A stretch of 64,000 nucleotides of DNA from Escherichia coli (GTDB lineage: Bacteria > Pseudomonadota > Gammaproteobacteria > Enterobacterales > Enterobacteriaceae). The stretch lies in assembly GCA_025544715.1 (NCBI GenBank), contig GCA_025544715.1_4109.2; one strand, 5' to 3'. The position numbers were made by a program, and so were the translations under genes. The notes below the pieces were generated by a model. The model did no database searches, was not told the origin of the DNA, and worked only from the letters and a program-made list of their open reading frames with translations. Positions 5,269 to 24,682 of this stretch are shown here, one piece after another; positions within the stretch are counted from its first letter, which is position 1, and each line of letters starts with the position of its first letter.

Positions 5269-6057
5269 TTAAATGTTAGTAGTATAGTACTTGATTTCGT
5301 TTTGAATTGCAAGTTCTATTTGTTTATTGAAAAGAATTCCAAACTCTTTGATTGATTCACAATCGAATTCAATAGAAAAAGTATACTCTGGTACACGTAC
5401 ATTGTCAATACCCAAATACTCTTTTATGTAAATTTTAATGAGTTCACATAGTGCAGTACTAAGACATTGAATTTCAAAATGTTTTGCACCTTTGTCAAAA
5501 TACTTGAATGCATCAATATCACCTACAATAAAACTATTCTTTAATGTAGTGAATAGGTTCTCAGGAAACACGGTAATAGGTGACATTGATTTAAGAATGT
5601 ATGTATCTTTTGCATTCTTAATGTACTCAATGAAGCAGTAGTTAACGTCAGGCTCGATTGAACGATCCGCGTTATGATACCAGTGTTTAAACTCACTGTA
5701 TTCAGCAAACTTATGCTGGCGTAATGCGTTACAATCTTCACACAGTGCAGTCATGTTCTCTTTATCATTACCGCCCTGAAGACAGTCCAGTACGTTATGG
5801 TCTAACGTCATGCGTACAAGACGTTTCCCTTTAAGTACATAAGGTCTGAATTTATAACGTTCTTTAGTACTGTGCTTGTGTAAAGTGAATACTACATTGG
5901 ATTCACCACAACAATCACATTTAAAGCCATCACGTGACATTACATGAATAAGTTTGCGTGTGTTCGGTCCAAACTCAGATTTAGTAATTTTATCCACAAT
6001 TTCTGATGGTTGGTAATATTTTGAATTCCGTTGAATCAGTTCATCGATAGTGCTCAT
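5269..6057 (-). CDS. HNH endonuclease domain protein (262 aa)
   Basis: Cys-x2-Cys pair plus DHNVLDCLQGGNDKENMTALCEDCN, an HNH-type motif. Confidence 0.55.
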   Translation of the reverse strand: MSTIDELIQRNSKYYQPSEIVDKITKSEFGPNTRKLIHVMSRDGFKCDCCGESNVVFTLHKHSTKERYKFRPYVLKGKRLVRMTLDHNVLDCLQGGNDKENMTALCEDCNALRQHKFAEYSEFKHWYHNADRSIEPDVNYCFIEYIKNAKDTYILKSMSPITVFPENLFTTLKNSFIVGDIDAFKYFDKGAKHFEIQCLSTALCELIKIYIKEYLGIDNVRVPEYTFSIEFDCESIKEFGILFNKQIELAIQNEIKYYTTNI

Positions 6058-6587: not shown

Positions 6588-7110
6588 GGACTTTTAATAT
6601 TGACGGGATTTGAGGAAGGGATTTTTCTTCCCCCCCACAAGGAGGGAAATTTGACGCTGATGGTATCAGAGCTATTGCATTGAAGATTACTCATAACGAG
6701 TGCGAAAGCGGGTCATCCTGTTTCTCTCTACTTCAGTTTCATATGACGGTCTACACTTTTAAACATAGTGTATCTTCATTAAGTATCTATGCAATCAAAT
6801 ACTTAATGTGAGTACTCAAATTCTGGACGCAACTTTCCTGTACAAAATTTGATAACTCTCCCTTAGATAATTCGTAAGGTGTTATCCTTATATGTCTATC
6901 AAGGAACCACCAGCTATCCTAACGTGGTTCTTTATACAGCCGCATTGCCGTGAGGGGTTCAAACTATGCCCACATCTAACGGGTTTCTTTTGCTGTTCGC
7001 ACTGTCGGACTGCTCAACTGCCCTCTACGTTTTCGAGTGGATCAGGTACATGAATATCATGCCAACAGAATTGTACAAGATAATTATATCACAAACTTTT
7101 ACTTCATCCC

Positions 7111-7145
7111 ATAAAAAAAGGTTGGCATAAGCCAACCCTTTTTCT
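7111..7145 (-). terminator. intrinsic terminator
   Basis: GGTTGGC-ataa-GCCAACC hairpin followed by U7 on minus strand, directly after the sigma gene stop. Confidence 0.6.
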
Positions 7146-8111
7146 TTAGAAATCTTCGTATTCGTACCCTTTTGCAAGTACTAGCTTCTTAAGCTTTTGC
7201 ATAGCTTCACTGTACTTTCGATGTATTGATGAACGGGATTTAACATATTTTCCATTATCATCAACAAAACCATTATCAGCAATCTCACGAAGCGTTTCAG
7301 GTTCATATTCACCTAGACCATGAACACGCTGGATAATCTCACGTTCTTTAGTACTCAATTCGTTAGTCAGTTCATTGATAGCATAACGTAAAGGTGCACG
7401 AATACTATCAACATTGAGGTTAAAATCAGAAGCAGGTGAATGAATAATGTCACCTAGTGTACCATCTGTAACACCGTCTAATGGTGCATCCAGTGAAGTG
7501 TATTCGCTTTGAAATAACAAACAATTATTAACATGCTGAATCTCAATCCCAGTACCCTCTGAGATTATTTCAGGAGTTGGGCGAACACCATGTTTACGCA
7601 TATATTCTTGGCAGAATCTTTTTACTTTGATCTTATGAACACTCATATAACGTGGGAAGTGTACCATATAGTTAGCGTCAGAACTTTCGTTATAAACTGT
7701 CATGTAAATACTAGAAGAAGCATAGGTAATGAACTTCACATTCTTATTAAGATCAAAGGTTTTTAGTGCTCTCATGAACCCCTCAACACCATATGAAATC
7801 TTATCTTCAAATGGGATATAACAAGTACATTTACTTGCTACATCAATAATAAGTCCATAATTGTAACGAACTAACAGTTCAGTGTTTTTCTTTACATTGA
7901 TACCAGCTTGAATATCACGAATTAGATCTTCATTGGTAACATTTTGTGGTCGCTTAAGTGTAATATTATATTTGAAACTGCTTTGTACTTTACCTTCATT
8001 TTCATCTTTATCTTCAACGAAATCTAAGGCTTCTAGTGTGTTGACTTCTTCATTAGCAAAACATTCATCCAGAACTTCTTCGGCAATTGTATTTAAATCA
8101 AGCTTTTTCAC
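7146..8111 (-). CDS. RNA polymerase sigma factor, sigma-70 family (321 aa)
   Basis: region 2-like GFMRALKTFDLNKNVKFITYASSSI and region 4-like LSTKEREIIQRVHGLGEYEPETLREIAD. Confidence 0.6.
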   Translation of the reverse strand: MKKLDLNTIAEEVLDECFANEEVNTLEALDFVEDKDENEGKVQSSFKYNITLKRPQNVTNEDLIRDIQAGINVKKNTELLVRYNYGLIIDVASKCTCYIPFEDKISYGVEGFMRALKTFDLNKNVKFITYASSSIYMTVYNESSDANYMVHFPRYMSVHKIKVKRFCQEYMRKHGVRPTPEIISEGTGIEIQHVNNCLLFQSEYTSLDAPLDGVTDGTLGDIIHSPASDFNLNVDSIRAPLRYAINELTNELSTKEREIIQRVHGLGEYEPETLREIADNGFVDDNGKYVKSRSSIHRKYSEAMQKLKKLVLAKGYEYEDF

Positions 8112-8132
8112 TTACATCTCCTAATGACGAAA

Positions 8133-8630
8133 TCAAAATCGATATACATTAATATTATCATCTGTGAAGCAATCATGGTTATGCACATCCATGAAAGTAC
8201 TAAACACTTTATCATATAAAGTTGTATGTTCTTCATGAATAGCAGCATCTACCATGTATTCTCCACCACTTCCCATAAAGAAAGTGTAGTCTTCATGTAG
8301 ATATTCAAGTTTTTTAATAAACTTTCCTTTAGTTAAAATCATATGAATAACATAATCTTTAGAAAGAAGCACACAATGGCAACTTAACTTTCTGTCAGGT
8401 ATAACTGGTACTTTATTAATTAACCAATCCAGTACTTTATCAATTTCACTTACTGACCCACTAGCACTGAATAAACGGTCATGTACATATAAAGTTTTTT
8501 GATTAACAACTCCATATTGATATTTTGGTCTTAGTGGGAAAAAACCAAATAAGTTTCTTGGTATAGTTGACGTAACTCTAGAATCGGTAATCAATAAATT
8601 TAATCGTTTATCAATATAAACAGTTGTCAT
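8133..8630 (-). CDS. HslV-like / proteasome-type Ntn-hydrolase peptidase homologue (165 aa)
   Basis: N-terminal MTTV (Thr after Met) and FFMGSGGEYMVDAAIH resembling HslV IAIGSGGPYA region, by recall. Confidence 0.45.
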   Translation of the reverse strand: MTTVYIDKRLNLLITDSRVTSTIPRNLFGFFPLRPKYQYGVVNQKTLYVHDRLFSASGSVSEIDKVLDWLINKVPVIPDRKLSCHCVLLSKDYVIHMILTKGKFIKKLEYLHEDYTFFMGSGGEYMVDAAIHEEHTTLYDKVFSTFMDVHNHDCFTDDNINVYRF

Positions 8631-8631
8631 A

Positions 8632-9051
8632 TTAAACCTTATCTAAGAATTTATCGTATATATAAAATTCTTTATCGGTGAATACAGTAAATCTAGGATC
8701 GAATCTTTGCATTGTGTTCGTATACAATGAACTTTTTAAATAAAAATACAAAGCAACAAATTCTGATATATGCATATTCTTTTTATTGTTACATAAATTC
8801 TTTAGCATTTTGATGCTATCAAATTCTTCTTTATCAAATCTGTACTGGTAAAAATTGTATCTATTGGATCGGCACTCATAGATACGAAGTGCCATTATAT
8901 CAATACATTCTTTAGATTTACAGTACTTATTCAATACGTCATAATCACCCGTACATAATGCTACAAAGATTTTATGTGCAAGCGTAGCTTTGCCCTCAAT
9001 CGTATAATAGCCAAAAAATTTAATGATTAAGTACTGAATGAATGTAATCAT
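8632..9051 (-). CDS. hypothetical protein (139 aa)
   Basis: ORF track. Confidence 0.45.
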   Translation of the reverse strand: MITFIQYLIIKFFGYYTIEGKATLAHKIFVALCTGDYDVLNKYCKSKECIDIMALRIYECRSNRYNFYQYRFDKEEFDSIKMLKNLCNNKKNMHISEFVALYFYLKSSLYTNTMQRFDPRFTVFTDKEFYIYDKFLDKV

Positions 9052-9056
9052 TTGAT

Positions 9057-9317
9057 TTAGAATTTCTCCGAAATTACTAGAGTGTCATCATAATCTTCTG
9101 CAATCTCATGAAGAACTTTTAAGTTACTTTCACCAGAAACGCTTTGTACTTCGTTCAAAAGATAGTTTAGATCAACTTTAGTTACTTTTTCTGAATCAAA
9201 TACACAGAAAGTCAATTCGGCGTTTGGACAGATCTTCTTCAGATTATCAGCAACAACTTGTTTGAAGTTGAAAGATGGGGAAGCAACCAGGTTAACTGCA
9301 ACGAGAATAGATTTCAT
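9057..9317 (-). CDS. hypothetical protein (86 aa)
   Basis: ORF track. Confidence 0.4.
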   Translation of the reverse strand: MKSILVAVNLVASPSFNFKQVVADNLKKICPNAELTFCVFDSEKVTKVDLNYLLNEVQSVSGESNLKVLHEIAEDYDDTLVISEKF

Positions 9318-9356
9318 AATGTTTTCCTTTTTAGCTGATAATTAAATTAGGAGCAC

Positions 9357-9385
9357 ATTGTACTCCATATTATTTGTTATGTCAA
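9357..9385 (-). promoter_or_regulatory. sigma70-like promoter (TTGACA-17-TACAAT)
   Basis: minus-strand reading, upstream of 9057-9317. Confidence 0.45.
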
Positions 9386-9391
9386 ATACTT

Positions 9392-9643
9392 TTAGATACC
9401 AAGTGCAGTAGATAACTCTTTACGTTTGTTATATGAATCAGATTCAATCTTACTTTTCTTGTTGAAAAGGGATTCGATATCCTTATAGATTGCTTCGATA
9501 GATTTAGTTACTACCCATTCTGATTCTTGAAGCATACCTTGGAGTCGTGCGTACTCAACTTTGATAGTACTGCGAAGTTCTTCACAAACTTCTTCATTCT
9601 TAATTAGTGCAGCACTAAGTTCTTTGACCTTATCGATGTTCAT
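9392..9643 (-). CDS. hypothetical protein (83 aa)
   Basis: ORF track. Confidence 0.4.
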   Translation of the reverse strand: MNIDKVKELSAALIKNEEVCEELRSTIKVEYARLQGMLQESEWVVTKSIEAIYKDIESLFNKKSKIESDSYNKRKELSTALGI

Positions 9644-9677
9644 AAGTTCCTTACTCTAATTTGTTTTTAACAAAATA

Positions 9678-9706
9678 ATTATATATAACATACTAAATTA
9701 TGTCAA
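9678..9706 (-). promoter_or_regulatory. sigma70-like promoter (TTGACA-17-TATAAT)
   Basis: consensus hexamers on minus strand. Confidence 0.55.
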
Positions 9707-10128
9707 GTATTTTTAGTACCTTCTTCTGCCATTTTTGTGATATACCAATTAAGTACTGATTTGTGTACCATAAAAAATGTGAATGCAAATATAACAATAG
9801 CTGCTGATGTAACACTATTAGATAATGACCCAAGTTGGATGTTAGTACCTAAAATAACAATAAATGGATACAACACAATCAATCTACTGTAAGGTTCGTC
9901 TCCAGTATCACGGAGAAATCCAAGCCTTTCATGATCAGTATCCATAGTGACAATTGGACAGAACATAAGTGCAGACATAAGAGCAATACCAATTTGTGCT
10001 ACATTGGAAATTGTAAACCACAAAGGATTTAAACCATATGAAATATTATTTTCTGTACAGTAGTAACCAAACGAATTGAATGCACAAACTAAAAATACAA
10101 AAATACAAATCTTATTATAACCTCTCAT
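9703..10128 (-). CDS. hypothetical membrane protein (141 aa)
   Basis: multiple hydrophobic helices. Confidence 0.45.
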   Translation of the reverse strand: MRGYNKICIFVFLVCAFNSFGYYCTENNISYGLNPLWFTISNVAQIGIALMSALMFCPIVTMDTDHERLGFLRDTGDEPYSRLIVLYPFIVILGTNIQLGSLSNSVTSAAIVIFAFTFFMVHKSVLNWYITKMAEEGTKNT

Positions 10129-11048: not shown

Positions 11049-11525
11049 CTAAGAATCTTTGTTGTCAAACTTTTCCCTCAAGTATTTTTCTATTAATCTA
11101 ATTTGTGTTGGTGGTAAGATAAAATAATCGTACATAGATTTACTACCATGTATCGAACAACCTACACTAATACTATAATCATATGGATATAAGTATATTG
11201 GGTCTTGTATATCAGGTATGAAAACTATTCTTGATATATTACCATTTCCTATTCTTACTTGGACGTTATCATTATTATTAATATAATTTCTTATACAGTA
11301 CTCAATTATACCATTTACTTTAGAATCATAACCATAATTTTTATATTCAGGAAAAATGAAATAGCGTTCATGGTATAGATATGAGCATAGTAATGCTGGG
11401 AAAAAATTCCAAAAACCTTCATGCTTTGCAATTGTTTGTGCATATTTAAAATGATTAGCATTACTAAAAATATTATACAGTACAAAATACACAAATGGAC
11501 TTACCAACAACACTATTGTTAACAT
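11049..11525 (-). CDS. hypothetical protein (158 aa)
   Basis: ORF track; hydrophobic N-terminus. Confidence 0.5.
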   Translation of the reverse strand: MLTIVLLVSPFVYFVLYNIFSNANHFKYAQTIAKHEGFWNFFPALLCSYLYHERYFIFPEYKNYGYDSKVNGIIEYCIRNYINNNDNVQVRIGNGNISRIVFIPDIQDPIYLYPYDYSISVGCSIHGSKSMYDYFILPPTQIRLIEKYLREKFDNKDS

Positions 11526-11986
11526 CAGAAGCCTCTGTATTTTTCATACACTTCAACGCATTCCATGATTTTGTCGTCGTCCATCATATCATAGCCTTGT
11601 AGAAATTCTTCTTTATCAACCTTCCCTGCCATCATATCTGTGTCAGAAATTCTGGAGTCATAGAAGGAATACATATCTTTATAGTACTGGTTTTTGTGTT
11701 GCTCAATTTTTACTTTAGCATATCCAGCACAAAATGAAGGAGATTTAACAACTTCCCATTTATGCTTCTTGATGGGTTTATCATTAGCATGTTTTTCCCT
11801 GTATGTCTGACGATAACGTTCACGCATTTCAGGCATGTATTCTTCAGCAGTACGTTTAGGGGGAGTTTTACCAGTCCCAATAGTTTTAATAGTTTGACGT
11901 TGTTCTTCTGCGTGTACTGGGGAAATGAAACATGATGTACCAAACAGTACTGCTACGATAACCATAAAATTCTTAAACATAATCAA
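11525..11986 (-). CDS. hypothetical secreted protein (153 aa)
   Basis: signal peptide-like MIMFKNFMVIVAVLFGTSCFISPVHA. Confidence 0.5.
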   Translation of the reverse strand: MIMFKNFMVIVAVLFGTSCFISPVHAEEQRQTIKTIGTGKTPPKRTAEEYMPEMRERYRQTYREKHANDKPIKKHKWEVVKSPSFCAGYAKVKIEQHKNQYYKDMYSFYDSRISDTDMMAGKVDKEEFLQGYDMMDDDKIMECVEVYEKYRGF

Positions 11987-12210
11987 ACCTCTTTTACAAT
12001 AATATCGATTGATACTGGAATTGCAATTTCACTATTACATGAATATACATCAGCACAGTACTCAATATCTAGTACTTTATAATATTTCTCAAAACCACAA
12101 ATGGTAAGATTCAACGTTGACCCAACTGCTGGGAGTACAGGAAATGATAAGAACGCAATTTTAGAATGAAACTCTTCATTGATATCTTGATATACAGTTG
12201 CATTAATCAC
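11983..12210 (-). CDS. hypothetical protein (75 aa)
   Basis: ORF track; ATGA overlaps both sides. Confidence 0.4.
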   Translation of the reverse strand: MINATVYQDINEEFHSKIAFLSFPVLPAVGSTLNLTICGFEKYYKVLDIEYCADVYSCNSEIAIPVSIDIIVKEV

Positions 12211-21653: not shown

Positions 21654-21718
21654 GAACCTTAGACCTCATAATATCCATTATGATATTATTTATTGTTCCA
21701 AGGTTCATAGTTAATTTG

Positions 21719-21802
21719 CTGGTAGTACTGGAGTCGAACCAGTCTTGTCATTTCTGACACGGATTAACAGTCCGTTGCATAAGGCCGATATGCTAACTAC
21801 CA
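21719..21802 (-). tRNA. tRNA, anticodon GUU as read (Asn), but with a long class-II variable arm; identity uncertain
   Basis: hand fold: 7-bp acceptor, D-arm GCAT/ATGC, anticodon stem ACGGA/TCCGT with loop CTGTTAA, 15-nt variable arm, T-arm ACTGG-TTCGACT-CCAGT. Confidence 0.5.
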
Positions 21803-21814
21803 TTTGTTTTAAAT

Positions 21815-21894
<80 letters not shown>

Positions 21895-21897
21895 GTA

Positions 21898-22391
<494 letters not shown>

Positions 22392-22753
22392 ATCACCAAC
22401 TTTAATTAAAAAAATGGATGGTGACGCGTTTAAACGCCGCTGTTAATTCAGCTTTATAACCACCCGTTTTAACTTACCTTTCGGCTACCTTGACGTGGGG
22501 CGTACAGGCTACTAAAAGCAACTTCTGTAAACATATTTCCACGCCTTACCATTTTAAATAAAAGTCCATCCGGTTTTCCAGTTTGGTGAAGGACTGTCAC
22601 CTCTAGTTTCAACCTGCTAGTCAAGTAATAATTGCCTATCGTCCAATTATCAAACCCGTCTAGGTTAACATTCACCACTTCCTAGAGTACCAGAGATCTT
22701 GTTCTGGATAGCATCGACGTAACTTACACCATATACGTCTGATTGTGGAATTC
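22392..22753 (-). ncRNA. candidate promoter-driven structured RNA or long leader (~360 nt)
   Basis: ORF-free, visibly GC-richer stretch immediately downstream of a consensus promoter. Confidence 0.25.
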
Positions 22754-22778
22754 ATTATATCAGTACTGAACTATTTAG

Positions 22779-22782
<4 letters not shown>
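22754..22782 (-). promoter_or_regulatory. sigma70-consensus promoter (TTGACT-17-TATAAT), cassette copy 2
   Basis: near-identical to the cassette at 21995-22023. Confidence 0.55.
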
Positions 22783-23191
<409 letters not shown>

Positions 23192-23204
23192 GCTTTTTTT
23201 TTAA

Positions 23205-23365
<161 letters not shown>

Positions 23366-23369
<4 letters not shown>

Positions 23370-23526
23370 ATTCGTACCAGTAGTTCAATTAAGTACATTT
23401 CATATGCTGGATCGTTGATAAGTTTATCATACAGATGTGGCTCTGAAATGAATTCCCAATGATACTCTAACCACTTACCAAAACCTGCATATCTAAAATT
23501 AATGTCATTCATCCATTCTTCATGTG

Positions 23527-23530
<4 letters not shown>
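23366..23530 (-). CDS. MTHEEW small-protein family member (54 aa)
   Basis: hand translation MTHEEWMNDINFRYAGFGKWLEYHWEFISEPHLYDKLINDPAYEMYLIELLVRI. Confidence 0.45.
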
Positions 23531-23790
<260 letters not shown>

Positions 23791-23794
23791 TATT

Positions 23795-23910
<116 letters not shown>

Positions 23911-23927
23911 ATGTGATGTCCCATTAT

Positions 23928-24146
23928 TTATGCAAGTGCTTTAGATACACCGACACCAATAATTCCAGTGATAGCGATATGGATATTGACAAGTTGATTA
24001 CTATCATATGGGTTTGTTTCTGTAATAACCAATGTTGTATCATTGACTAAAACCACAGTGCCTTTTACACGATACCCATGTAGTAGTACTTGAACCTCAT
24101 CTTCAGGTTTTAATGATTGAATAACTTCAAATAAAGTTGTTTCCAT
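23928..24146 (-). CDS. hypothetical protein (72 aa)
   Basis: ORF track. Confidence 0.35.
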   Translation of the reverse strand: METTLFEVIQSLKPEDEVQVLLHGYRVKGTVVLVNDTTLVITETNPYDSNQLVNIHIAITGIIGVGVSKALA

Positions 24147-24162
24147 TTTTTATATTCCTTGT

Positions 24163-24345
24163 TTAGTTTTGATTATTTGATTTTCTAAATGCCAGTTCGC
24201 ATATAAACCAAGGTTTTCTGGTATCCAAAACATATGACCTGAAAAGATTTTCATCTCTTAAGATATCATAATGTACCTGACGAATGCCATTTCCAAAGCA
24301 ATCATGTTCTTTATGCTGTTTGGACATCCATTCTTCGTGTGTCAT
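24163..24345 (-). CDS. MTHEEW small-protein family member (60 aa)
   Basis: track ORF 24163-24363 trimmed to the internal MTHEEWMSKQHKEHDCFGNGIR start. Confidence 0.4.
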   Translation of the reverse strand: MTHEEWMSKQHKEHDCFGNGIRQVHYDILRDENLFRSYVLDTRKPWFICELAFRKSNNQN

Positions 24346-24346
24346 T

Positions 24347-24682
<336 letters not shown>

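What the first reader, a model, noticed from the sequence alone, without database searches (positions are those of the whole stretch)
8133..8630. HslV-like Ntn-hydrolase peptidase homologue without an adjacent HslU
The ORF starts MTT (Thr exposed after Met removal, as in HslV) and has a GSGG...AA segment like the HslV active-site region. No AAA+ partner is adjacent. It could hijack host HslU, act as an inactive decoy, or be a phage maturation protease of the same fold.
Basis: partly seen in the sequence, partly recalled or inferred. Interest (0 to 1): 0.55.

Follow-up and report, generated by a model that had tools for sequence, protein, structure and literature searches.

The report
Divergent phage proteasome-like (HslV-type) peptidase
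This early gene of a 121Q-type jumbo coliphage encodes a small, highly diverged relative of the bacterial HslV/proteasome threonine protease that keeps the full catalytic residue set; the phage has no HslU partner, and what the protein does is unknown.

Summary

It is not a canonical HslV. Helix H2 is missing, as in the phage proteasome homologue PPH. A 13-residue extension lengthens the S3/S4 hairpin. HslV and Pfam Proteasome models do not recognise it.

No HslU is encoded in the window or in the near-identical phAPEC6 genome. That genome does encode ClpA, ClpP, a T4-type prohead protease and a second, more conventional HslV-family paralogue elsewhere. The gene lies in a sigma70-promoter-rich early region, in an apparent operon with the phage sigma factor, and its product is absent from the phAPEC6 virion proteome.

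I read it as an active, early-expressed N-terminal-threonine hydrolase. It is a new member of the known phage proteasome-like proteins, and its substrate is unknown.

The parts
8133..8630 (-). Gene for the 165-aa proteasome-like (HslV-type) Ntn hydrolase. It equals 121Q gp166 and phAPEC6 gp067c, and belongs to PHROG 24804.
8622..8630 (-). Codons for M1-T2-T3. T2 becomes the N-terminal nucleophile (Thr1 equivalent) once the initiator Met is removed. There is no propeptide.
   Evidence: Sequence read directly. M1, T2 and T3 are invariant in all 34 family members. E. coli HslV also starts (M)TTIV. Met removal before Thr is established methionine-aminopeptidase specificity and is inferred here.
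8583..8585 (-). Codon for D16, the Asp17 equivalent, within the T-D-S-R-V-T motif.
   Evidence: Invariant in A3. Aligned to HslV Asp17 in the global hhalign.
8523..8561 (-). Approximate position (residues about 24-36) of the 13-residue extension of the S3/S4 beta hairpin between the Asp17 and Lys33 equivalents.
   Evidence: The D16-K45 spacing is 29 residues, against 16 in HslV/20S. An 11-residue gap appears in the global alignment to HslV. The model has long strands at 18-27 and 31-41. S3/S4 is the insertion site that gives connectase its specificity (PMC8665760).
8496..8498 (-). Codon for K45, the Lys33 equivalent.
   Evidence: At least 90% conserved in A2/A3. The A2 profile aligns 'vnqKalyihdrlf..aG' to human beta1 'VTDKLTPIHDRIFCCRSG'.
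8457..8459 (-). Codon for G58, the Gly47 oxyanion-hole equivalent.
   Evidence: Invariant. Aligned to S-G47-S of beta1.
8265..8273 (-). Codons for G120-S121-G122, the Gly128-Ser129-Gly130 equivalent.
   Evidence: Invariant. Aligned to the HslV GSGG and the beta1/beta5 GSG.
8172..8174 (-). Codon for D153, the probable Asp166 equivalent at the end of helix H4.
   Evidence: Invariant. The equivalence rests on order and spacing only: S121 to D153 is 32 residues, against 37 from Ser129 to Asp166.
9357..9385 (-). Sigma70-type promoter (TTGACA-17-TACAAT) that probably drives the four-gene unit containing the target.
   Evidence: An 11/12 consensus match lying in an intergenic gap. It is one of 33 such sites on the coding strand of the window, against 2 on the other strand and 5.9 +/- 2.5 in shuffles. 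Promoter function is inferred.
9057..9317 (-). First gene of the apparent operon: 86 aa, unknown function, phrog_26969.
8632..9051 (-). Second gene of the apparent operon: 139 aa, unknown function, phrog_37211. Its stop lies one base before the target's ATG.
7146..8111 (-). Phage sigma70-family sigma factor (321 aa), starting 21 nt downstream of the target on the same strand.
   Evidence: Pfam Sigma70_r2/r3/r4 and phrog_351 at 8.3e-61. The gene order target then sigma is conserved in fEgEco12 and in Klebsiella phage K64-1.
7110..7137 (-). Intrinsic terminator (GGGTTGGC-TTAT-GCCAACC followed by T7) directly after the sigma factor stop. It marks the probable 3' end of the unit.

Best explanation
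The gene encodes a catalytically competent N-terminal-threonine (peptidase family T1-type) hydrolase. It is a compact, strongly diverged offshoot of the HslV/proteasome-beta lineage that is restricted to 121Q/RaK2-type jumbo phages and a few relatives.

Proposed mechanism:
- The protein is made without a propeptide.
- Host methionine aminopeptidase removes Met1 and exposes Thr2.
- The Thr2 hydroxyl is the nucleophile and its free amine is the base.
- K45 and D16 complete the triad, G58 forms the oxyanion hole, and G120-S121-G122 and D153 support the site.

The gene is transcribed early by host sigma70-RNA polymerase, from a consensus promoter, as part of a four-gene unit that ends with the phage sigma factor. 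The protein therefore acts inside the infected cell during takeover, not in the virion.

Three features suggest how it works. It lacks helix H2, half of the surface HslV uses to receive HslU tails. It carries an extended S3/S4 hairpin beside the active site. The phage encodes no HslU. From these I infer that it most likely works without HslU as a self-contained, substrate-selective protease, probably after assembling into a ring like its relatives.

Status of each step:
- Shown: fold, residue conservation, genomic context, and absence from the phAPEC6 virion proteome.
- Inferred: Met removal, catalytic activity, oligomerisation, early timing, independence from HslU.
- Unknown: the substrate.
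For: - Sequence: phrog_1040 'peptidase HslV family' at E 4.9e-6 for the query. 14 of 23 relatives hit it (best 6e-14), and 3 of 23 hit Pfam Proteasome (best 1.3e-3). The family profile aligns its K45..G58 and GSG blocks to human beta1 and beta5.
- Catalytic residues: M1, T2, T3, D16, T20, G58, G120, S121, G122 and D153 are invariant, and K45 is at least 90% conserved, in 34 sequences down to about 18% identity.
- No propeptide is possible, because the ATG is the first start after an in-frame stop.
- Early, non-structural role: 33 near-consensus sigma70 promoters lie on the coding strand, against 2 on the other strand and 5.9 +/- 2.5 in shuffles. One promoter is at 9385-9357 and a terminator at 7137-7110. 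phAPEC6 gp067c is absent from the virion proteome (PMC7247149). The prohead protease is a different gene.
- No HslU in the window or in 350 kb of phAPEC6.
- H2 loss and S3/S4 extension: secondary structure of the model and spacing against HslV. HslU tails contact HslV F54, F57, Q114 and A79/K80, the last two in H2 (PMC6429459). PPH and RPC also lack H2, and S3/S4 is the connectase specificity site (PMC8665760).
Against: - No biochemical data exist for this or any phage proteasome homologue that I could find.
- The query itself gets no hit from Pfam, NCBIfam or PDB sequence searches. Profile-profile comparisons with HslV or with the paralogue family align only the GSG region with confidence.
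- The fold assignment rests on a predicted model. A first model from a shallower alignment (pLDDT 80) pointed to PP2C phosphatases instead.
- Isolated proteasome-type subunits are normally inactive until assembled. Oligomerisation could not be tested.
- Independence from HslU is argued only from the missing helix and the missing gene. The E. coli host does supply HslU.
- The promoter and terminator are consensus matches, not measured transcripts.
Confidence: 0.55

Rival explanations
1. Host-HslU-dependent peptidase. The phage protein forms hexameric rings that dock onto E. coli HslU, replacing or competing with host HslV. This would redirect ATP-dependent degradation during infection.
For: - The protein has the same propeptide-free M-T-T start as E. 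coli HslV.
- The phage encodes no HslU, while the host does.
- Orphan HslV genes without HslU have been noted in another jumbo phage (PMC7823757).
Against: - Helix H2 is absent. The segment between the Gly47 equivalent and the next strand is about 23 residues shorter than in HslV, and HslV A79/K80 in H2 help hold the HslU tail.
- HslV-specific models do not recognise the protein.
- Other diverged proteasome homologues (BPH, Anbu, PPH) have no known unfoldase (PMC8665760).
Confidence: 0.15
2. Non-proteolytic Ntn enzyme. It would be a sequence-specific transpeptidase or ligase (like connectase) or an amidase acting on a non-protein substrate, using the same Thr1 chemistry.
For: - The only insertion in the protein lies at S3/S4, the site of the element that gives connectase its specificity.
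- The protein is compact and lacks H2, a member of the H1/H2 helix pair that connectase lacks entirely.
Against: - HslV and the catalytic 20S beta subunits score higher than connectase.
- The insertion here is a beta-hairpin extension, not the two-helix lid of connectase.
- Nothing in the gene neighbourhood suggests a ligase substrate or a small-molecule pathway.
Confidence: 0.12
3. Proteolytic core for the phage's own ClpA homologue. This would be a six-fold-symmetric alternative to ClpP, forming a hybrid ClpA/HslV-like machine.
For: - 121Q-type phages encode a full-length ClpA: phAPEC6 gp246c, E 2.4e-180 and 43% identity to E. coli ClpA.
- ClpA is conserved across RaK2-like jumbo phages, including the genera that carry the target.
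Against: - The same genome encodes a ClpP (gp353c, PF00574 at 3.8e-41).
- The phage ClpA keeps a ClpP-docking-type loop (IGL changed to IGM), so ClpP is the obvious partner.
- The ClpA gene lies about 135 kb from the target.
- ClpA is found in many phages where tblastn finds no target homologue, such as PA5oct, GAP32 and Atu_ph07.
- No ClpA-proteasome-type pairing is known.
Confidence: 0.06
4. Inactive decoy or poison subunit. It would titrate host HslU, or co-assemble with host HslV, to shut down host proteolysis.
For: - Phages are known to inhibit host proteases; T4 PinA against Lon is an example from general knowledge.
- The protein has an HslV-like fold but an altered docking face.
Against: - Every catalytic residue, including the N-terminal Thr, is invariant across a family that has otherwise diverged to about 18% identity. 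Selection on binding alone would not predict this.
- Loss of H2 would also weaken HslU binding.
Confidence: 0.05
5. Capsid (prohead) maturation protease built on an Ntn fold.
For: Large phages do need a maturation protease.
Against: - A Peptidase_S77 (T4 gp21-type) prohead protease is encoded beside the scaffold, major capsid and portal genes.
- phAPEC6 gp067c is not among the 62 virion proteins, while the S77 protease is.
- The target sits in an early region with the sigma factor, far from the structural genes.
Confidence: 0.02
6. PP2C-type phosphatase-like alpha-beta-beta-alpha protein. This was the reading suggested by the first structure model.
Against: - The invariant residues match the Thr protease set, not the PP2C metal-binding aspartates.
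- Sequence profiles point to HslV/Proteasome families.
Confidence: 0.01

Closest known systems
HslV (ClpQ), the peptidase of the bacterial HslUV protease (e.g. T. maritima 1m4y, E. coli b3932)
   Same: - Propeptide-free M-T-T N-terminus.
- Thr1/Asp17/Lys33/Gly/GSG(G) residues in the same order.
- Similar size (165 aa against 176 aa).
   Different: - No HslU gene next to it or anywhere in the phage genome.
- Helix H2 is missing, and the H1-H2 segment is about 23 residues shorter.
- A 13-residue extension lengthens the S3/S4 hairpin.
- It is not recognised by NCBIfam or Pfam models, by tblastn, or by phmmer against PDB HslV sequences.
[quoted passage not shown]
   Same: - Phage-encoded, compact, group I (HslV/BPH-like) proteasome homologue.
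- No propeptide.
- Lacks helix H2, the defining structural peculiarity of PPH and RPC.
- No known unfoldase partner and no known function.
   Different: - PPH is about 140 residues and was described as lacking insertions. This protein has 165 residues and an S3/S4 hairpin extension.
- An exhaustive profile search of 1.84 billion representative proteins found only 17 relatives, whereas PPH has 219 members at 70% redundancy. The family is therefore not within HMMER reach of PPH.
- A direct comparison was not possible because no PPH sequence was available to me.
Phage 'peptidase HslV family' (PHROG 1040), including the paralogue in the same phage (phAPEC6 gp345c / 121Q gp475) and the homologues in T5-like Epseptimavirus, Vibrio, Aeromonas and Geobacillus phages
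   Same: - Orphan phage proteasome-like proteins with an M-T-(C/A) start, an A-G-D Asp17 motif, a P-K-(V/I)-F Lys33 motif and a G-(S/C)-G motif.
- The query matches the PHROG 1040 profile at 4.9e-6, and a relative matches at 6e-14.
- Function uncharacterised.
   Different: - Those proteins are 176-208 aa, and their sequence leaves room for both H1 and H2 (my reading).
- They are widespread (198 records), whereas the target family is narrow (52 records) and forms its own PHROG, 24804.
- The two families do not strictly co-occur: 10 Klebsiella records carry the target type but only 2 carry the gp345c type.
- Direct profile-profile alignment is weak.
BPH and Anbu (bacterial proteasome homologues without a known unfoldase)
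   Same: - N-terminal Thr with no propeptide.
- Stand-alone genes with no cognate AAA+ partner.
   Different: - They have both H1 and H2, and different ring and pore features.
- They are bacterial, not phage-encoded.
- They show no detectable sequence similarity to the target.
Connectase (archaeal proteasome-like protein ligase, 6zw0/8jtu)
   Same: - Thr1 chemistry.
- Its distinguishing insertion is at the S3/S4 site.
   Different: - Connectase lacks both H1 and H2.
- Its S3/S4 insertion is a two-helix lid, not a beta hairpin.
- It has a C-terminal domain, is monomeric, and is archaeal.

Membership tests
Proteasome-beta/HslV-type Ntn hydrolases (MEROPS family T1 superfamily) | Four-layer alpha-beta-beta-alpha Ntn-hydrolase fold with the proteasome-subunit topology | tested here: met
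   [not shown]
Proteasome-beta/HslV-type Ntn hydrolases (MEROPS family T1 superfamily) | Thr (or Ser) nucleophile at the mature N-terminus | tested here: met
   M1-T2-T3 is invariant in 34 sequences. The ORF cannot extend upstream. Removal of Met1 by methionine aminopeptidase is inferred from that enzyme's known specificity and was not shown.
Proteasome-beta/HslV-type Ntn hydrolases (MEROPS family T1 superfamily) | Asp17, Lys33, Gly47, Gly128-Ser129-Gly130 and Asp166 equivalents | tested here: met
   D16, G58, G120-S121-G122 and D153 are invariant, and K45 is at least 90% conserved. K45/G58 and GSG align to human beta1 and beta5, and D16 and GSG align to HslV. The D153-Asp166 equivalence rests on order and spacing only. 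The three-dimensional arrangement could not be inspected because no coordinates were available.
Proteasome-beta/HslV-type Ntn hydrolases (MEROPS family T1 superfamily) | Match to Pfam PF00227 (Proteasome) above the gathering threshold | tested here: not met
   The query has no Pfam hit at E <= 1. Only 3 of 23 relatives give sub-threshold hits, best E 1.3e-3. Membership is therefore at the superfamily/fold level, not within the curated sequence family.
Proteasome-beta/HslV-type Ntn hydrolases (MEROPS family T1 superfamily) | Assembly into stacked six- or seven-membered rings, and peptidase activity | not testable with these tools
   No multimer prediction or biochemistry was available.
HslV proper (partner of HslU) | Recognised by HslV-specific sequence models or by direct sequence similarity | tested here: not met
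   - NCBIfam: no family at E <= 10.
- phmmer against the PDB: none.
- tblastn of E. coli HslV against the window: none at E <= 10.
- hhalign aligns only the GSGG block with confidence.
HslV proper (partner of HslU) | Co-encoded (normally adjacent) HslU AAA+ ATPase | tested here: not met
   - Window: best HslU tblastn hit is E 1.5.
- 350 kb of phAPEC6: only a Walker-A match inside ClpA.
- Distant homologues: no unfoldase neighbour.
HslV proper (partner of HslU) | H1 and H2 helices forming the inter-subunit pocket for the HslU C-terminal tail (F54, F57, A79/K80, Q114) | tested here: not met
   The model has a single 13-residue helix (residues 60-72) followed by a loop. The segment is about 23 residues shorter than in HslV. 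The pocket residues are taken from PMC6429459.
HslV proper (partner of HslU) | Propeptide-free M-T-T N-terminus | tested here: met
PPH (phage/host proteasome homologue, PMC8665760) | Encoded by tailed phages or prophage regions | tested here: met
   52 phage records, all jumbo phages of enterobacteria among those inspected. A distant homologue is in the 147-kb Klebsiella phage 05F01.
PPH (phage/host proteasome homologue, PMC8665760) | Lacks helix H2 | tested here: met
   Secondary structure of the high-confidence model, compared with the description.
PPH (phage/host proteasome homologue, PMC8665760) | About 140 residues, with no insertions in the core | tested here: not met
   The protein has 165 residues and a 13-residue S3/S4 extension.
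PPH (phage/host proteasome homologue, PMC8665760) | Falls in the PPH sequence cluster | not testable with these tools
   No PPH sequence (e.g. WP_042125023.1) could be retrieved. Indirect evidence argues against membership: the exhaustive profile search returned only 17 proteins.
PHROG 1040 'peptidase HslV family' | Significant match to the family profile | tested here: inconclusive
   The query matches at E 4.9e-6 over residues 1-128, and 14 of 23 relatives match (best 6e-14). Its own family, however, is PHROG 24804 (1.3e-103). Profile-profile alignment to seven PHROG-1040-type sequences covers only the GSG-to-H4 region.
PP2C/PPM phosphatases | PP2C fold and conserved metal-binding aspartates | tested here: not met
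   PP2C matches appeared only with the low-quality first model and are absent from the top 60 with the good model. The conserved residues do not fit.

The most novel reading that the evidence does not exclude
The protein would be an unfoldase-independent, substrate-specific threonine protease (or transpeptidase) that the phage deploys in the first minutes of infection together with its own sigma factor. Its extended S3/S4 hairpin would select a particular host target. Candidates are a host sigma factor or RNA polymerase-associated protein, whose removal would favour the phage sigma factor, or an anti-phage defence protein. This would be the first demonstrated function for any viral proteasome homologue and a new host-takeover mechanism. 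The evidence allows this reading (early operon with the sigma factor, intact active site, altered docking face, insertion next to the active site) but does not demonstrate it.
Probability: 0.15. Interest if true: 0.75.

Novelty: new member of a known kind. Interest (0 to 1): 0.4.

Why it matters
Proteasome-type threonine proteases are normally cellular machines gated by an ATPase. Viral copies have been noticed only in silico: PPH and AAH in 2021, and automatic 'HslV family' labels in phage annotation. None has a known substrate, partner or role.

This gene adds a distinct, very narrow family (17 representatives among 1.84 billion proteins) with three notable features:
- It keeps the complete catalytic set.
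- It has lost the helix that helps HslV bind HslU.
- It has gained a hairpin beside the active site.

The phage that carries it also encodes ClpA, ClpP, GroES and a second proteasome-like paralogue, so it has an unusually rich proteostasis toolkit of its own.

The protein is small and propeptide-free, is expressed from an E. coli-type promoter, and comes from a cultivable coliphage. That makes it a tractable entry point for asking what viral proteasome homologues do. For annotation, 121Q gp166 and its homologues can be renamed from 'hypothetical protein' to 'proteasome-like (HslV-type) Ntn hydrolase'. They should not be called 'ATP-dependent protease subunit HslV', as a few records now do.

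Tried and rejected
1. Direct sequence searches with the query found nothing: Pfam, NCBIfam, PADLOC, phmmer against the PDB, and tblastn with E. coli HslV. Only PHROGs gave a lead.

3. Profile-profile comparisons aligned only the GSG region with confidence: hhalign against single HslV, against the paralogue, and against a 7-sequence PHROG-1040-type alignment. They are not used as support, except that the global alignment is used for spacing.

4. I first inferred 'no AAA+ unfoldase in the phage' because the HslU tblastn found only 4 Escherichia phage records. That inference was wrong in its general form. Reading the phAPEC6 annotation revealed a full ClpA homologue that HslU does not detect at E <= 1e-3. 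The statement is now restricted to HslU.

5. Gene neighbourhoods of distant homologues showed no conserved partner: no sigma factor and no unfoldase. The adjacent AAA_28 protein in L003 is a NadR-like kinase domain next to an NMN transporter, and I read it as unrelated.

6. Literature searches found no experimental work on phage HslV-like proteins, only annotation remarks and the 2021 bioinformatic survey.

7. Canonical HslV 'hits' in the phage collection are almost all bacterial contamination or misassigned contigs.
Full report
**What is at the locus**

The window is a 121Q-type (Asteriusvirus) jumbo coliphage. Bases 7000-10000 are 99.4% identical to Escherichia phage 121Q and 99.3% identical to phAPEC6. 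The flagged ORF lies on the minus strand, with its ATG at 8630 and its stop at 8133, and encodes 165 aa. It is 100% identical to 121Q gp166 (AIT14056.1), which is annotated 'hypothetical protein'.

The ATG is the first start codon after an in-frame stop. It follows the stop of the upstream gene by one base and is preceded by an AAGG motif. The protein starts M-T-T and contains G120-S121-G122-G123 ...

**Is it an HslV/proteasome-type protein?**

Direct searches with the single sequence fail: Pfam, NCBIfam, PADLOC and PDB sequences give nothing. PHROGs place it in its own family of unknown function (phrog_24804, 1.3e-103). PHROGs also give a secondary match to phrog_1040, 'peptidase HslV family', at 4.9e-6.

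The family is very small:
- 16 clusters at 90% identity in 5.8 billion proteins.
- 17 representatives in an exhaustive profile search of 1.84 billion proteins.
- 52 phage records by tblastn, from Escherichia, Klebsiella, Salmonella and Erwinia phages, all jumbo phages among those inspected.
- One distant relative in the 147-kb Klebsiella phage 05F01.

When relatives are scanned individually, 14 of 23 match phrog_1040 (best 6e-14) and 3 of 23 match Pfam Proteasome (best 1.3e-3). The family profile aligns its K45...G58 block and its GSG block to human proteasome beta1 and beta5.

**Conserved residues**

I aligned 34 sequences reaching down to about 18% identity. The invariant positions are M1, T2, T3, D16, T20, G58, G120, S121, G122 and D153. 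T15, K45 and G102 are at least 90% conserved.

In order and spacing this is the proteasome-beta catalytic set: Thr1, Asp17, Lys33, Gly47 (oxyanion hole), Gly128-Ser129-Gly130 and Asp166. The local motifs T-D-S-R-V-T and Q-K-x-x-Y-x-H-D-R-L-F-x-x-x-G resemble 20S beta subunits as much as HslV. Strict conservation of an N-terminal Thr that Met removal would expose argues for catalytic function and against a decoy.

**Structure**

**How it differs from HslV**

The model has strands at 3-7, 12-16, 18-27, 31-41, 46-49 and 52-58. One helix follows at 60-72, then a loop at 73-83. Next come strands at 84-89, 93-100, 103-110 and 116-120, helices at 123-130 and 135-151, and a final strand at 160-164. 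Two differences from HslV stand out:

1. There is a single short helix where HslV and 20S subunits have H1 and H2. The segment between the Gly47 equivalent and the next strand is about 23 residues shorter.
2. The D16-K45 spacing is 29 residues instead of 16. This 13-residue extension lengthens the S3/S4 hairpin.

[quoted passage not shown] They identify S3/S4 as the insertion site carrying the specificity element of connectase. In HslV, the HslU C-terminal tails bind a pocket formed by F54 and F57 (H1), A79/K80 (H2) and Q114 (PMC6429459). Losing H2 therefore removes part of the canonical HslU docking site.

**Partners and paralogues**

There is no HslU in the window (best tblastn E 1.5). To test the whole genome I fetched 350 kb of phAPEC6, where window position w corresponds to phAPEC6 position w + 33,558. 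HslU matches only a 46-residue Walker-A stretch inside another gene, and the family HMM finds a single copy of the target.

The annotation and follow-up searches showed that this phage type carries a substantial proteostasis set outside the window:
- A full-length ClpA homologue, gp246c: 762 aa, E 2.4e-180 and 43% identity to E. coli ClpA, with the ClpP-docking IGL loop present as IGM.
- A ClpP, gp353c (PF00574 at 3.8e-41).
- A GroES.
- A MoxR-type ATPase.
- A T4-type Peptidase_S77 prohead protease beside the capsid genes.
- A second proteasome-like protein, gp345c, equal to 121Q gp475: 197 aa, M-T-C start, phrog_1040 at 4e-24.

That second family is widespread. It occurs in 198 phage records, including T5-like Epseptimavirus, Vibrio, Aeromonas and Geobacillus phages. 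It looks more conventional than the target.

The two families do not strictly co-occur: Klebsiella RaK2-type phages usually have the target type but not the gp345c type. ClpA is conserved far beyond the phages in which tblastn finds the target. ClpA therefore has an obvious partner in ClpP, and the target remains an orphan.

**Expression context**

The window carries 33 near-consensus (at least 11/12) sigma70 promoters on the minus (coding) strand, against 2 on the plus strand. Block shuffles give 5.9 +/- 2.5 for both strands together. This marks a host-RNA-polymerase-driven early region.

One of these promoters (TTGACA-17-TACAAT, 9385-9357) precedes a tight run of four minus-strand genes:
- 9317-9057 (86 aa)
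- 9051-8632 (139 aa)
- 8630-8133 (the target)
- 8111-7146 (the phage sigma70-family sigma factor)

A clear intrinsic terminator follows at 7137-7110. The order target then sigma factor is kept in fEgEco12 (74.5% identity) and in Klebsiella phage K64-1 (46%; a different genus). It is not kept near the most distant homologues.

In phAPEC6 the 99.4%-identical gp067c is absent from the 62-protein virion proteome, whereas the S77 protease is present (PMC7247149). The protein is therefore an early intracellular factor, not a capsid protease.

**Most likely mechanism**

These points are shown:
- A proteasome/HslV-type Ntn fold, in a predicted structure.
- A complete and invariant catalytic residue set.
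- No room for a propeptide.
- An early-region context.
- Absence from the phAPEC6 virion proteome.
- No HslU gene in the phage.

These points are inferred:
- Host methionine aminopeptidase exposes Thr2.
- The protein assembles, probably into rings, because isolated subunits of this family are usually inactive.
- It hydrolyses peptide bonds.
- It probably does so without HslU, given the missing H2.
- Its selectivity is shaped by the extended S3/S4 hairpin next to the active site.

The substrate is unknown. My confidence in the fold and the intact active site is about 0.9. My confidence in the whole statement is about 0.55.

The rivals, in order of plausibility, are dependence on host HslU (0.15), a connectase-like ligase or other non-proteolytic Ntn activity (0.12), coupling to the phage ClpA (0.06), a decoy or poison subunit (0.05), a maturation protease (0.02) and a PP2C-like protein (0.01).

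**Comparison with what is known, and novelty**

Phage-encoded proteasome homologues are a recognised but uncharacterised kind. Examples are PPH, AAH and CPH (PMC8665760), the PHROG 1040 'HslV family', and orphan HslV genes noted in phage pSal-SNUABM-04 (PMC7823757). Two GenBank records already label homologues of this gene 'ATP-dependent protease (subunit HslV)' through automatic annotation. Most records, including 121Q, call it hypothetical.

The family fails the tests for HslV proper: HslV-specific models do not recognise it, there is no HslU, and H2 is missing. It shares the H2 loss with PPH but differs in size and in the hairpin insertion, and by HMMER it is not within reach of any large family.

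I file it as a new member of the known kind 'phage proteasome-like Ntn hydrolases'. Interest is moderate (0.4).

Noticed in passing
window 1-64000, minus strand (e.g. 11068-11040, 9706-9678, 12914, 28088, 30495, 44567, 62753): There are 33 near-consensus (at least 11/12) sigma70 promoters (TTGACA-16/18-TATAAT) on the coding strand, against 2 on the other strand and 5.9 +/- 2.5 in shuffles. Ten are perfect 12/12 matches. The whole window looks like a host-polymerase-driven early region with a promoter every 1-2 kb.
   Followed up: partly
window 7146-8111 (-): A phage-encoded sigma70-family sigma factor (Sigma70 regions 2, 3 and 4; phrog_351) lies immediately downstream of the target. phAPEC6 also annotates a separate late sigma factor (gp237c) elsewhere in the genome.
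   Followed up: partly
window 7110-7137: A palindromic GC-rich hairpin is flanked by A-runs and T-runs on both sides. It reads as an intrinsic terminator on both strands, so it may be bidirectional.
   Followed up: partly
window 21718-24660 (-): A cluster of six tRNA genes: Asn-GTT, Met-CAT, Ser-GCT, Arg-TCT, Ser-TGA and Gly-TCC.
   Followed up: no
window 5269-6057 (-): A 262-aa HNH endonuclease (phrog_35175), probably a mobile homing-type gene in the early region. The fEgEco12 paper lists an HNH gene near the sigma factor as variable between related phages.
   Followed up: no
L015:8935-9528 (-) (phAPEC6 gp345c; 121Q gp475), outside the window: A second, more conventional proteasome/HslV-like paralogue in the same phage: 197 aa, M-T-C start, phrog_1040 at 4e-24. 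Its family occurs in 198 phage records, including T5-like Epseptimavirus. Its function is also unknown.
   Followed up: partly
L011:26659-28947 (-) and L015:13744-14439 (-) (phAPEC6 gp246c and gp353c), outside the window: The phage encodes its own full-length ClpA (43% identical to E. coli ClpA, with the IGL docking loop changed to IGM) and a ClpP. The two genes are about 85 kb apart. ClpA is conserved across RaK2-like jumbo phages, PA5oct and Atu_ph07. What a phage-encoded ClpAP does is not explained here.
   Followed up: partly
L003:8557-10560 and 11313-12005: Next to a distant homologue of the target, on a 144-kb metagenomic phage contig, lie a 667-aa AAA_28 (NadR-like) protein and an NMN transporter. 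This suggests an NAD-salvage module, probably unrelated to the protease.
   Followed up: no
[not shown]
   Followed up: yes
phages collection: Many short 'phage' records carry canonical bacterial hslV, hslU or clpA/B/C genes and look like host contamination. Examples are Listeria phage LM 4-11-1/4-14-1, Enterococcus phage IME_EF3 and Salmonella phage S.Kent 1-2-1. They inflate the apparent phage distribution of these genes.
   Followed up: no
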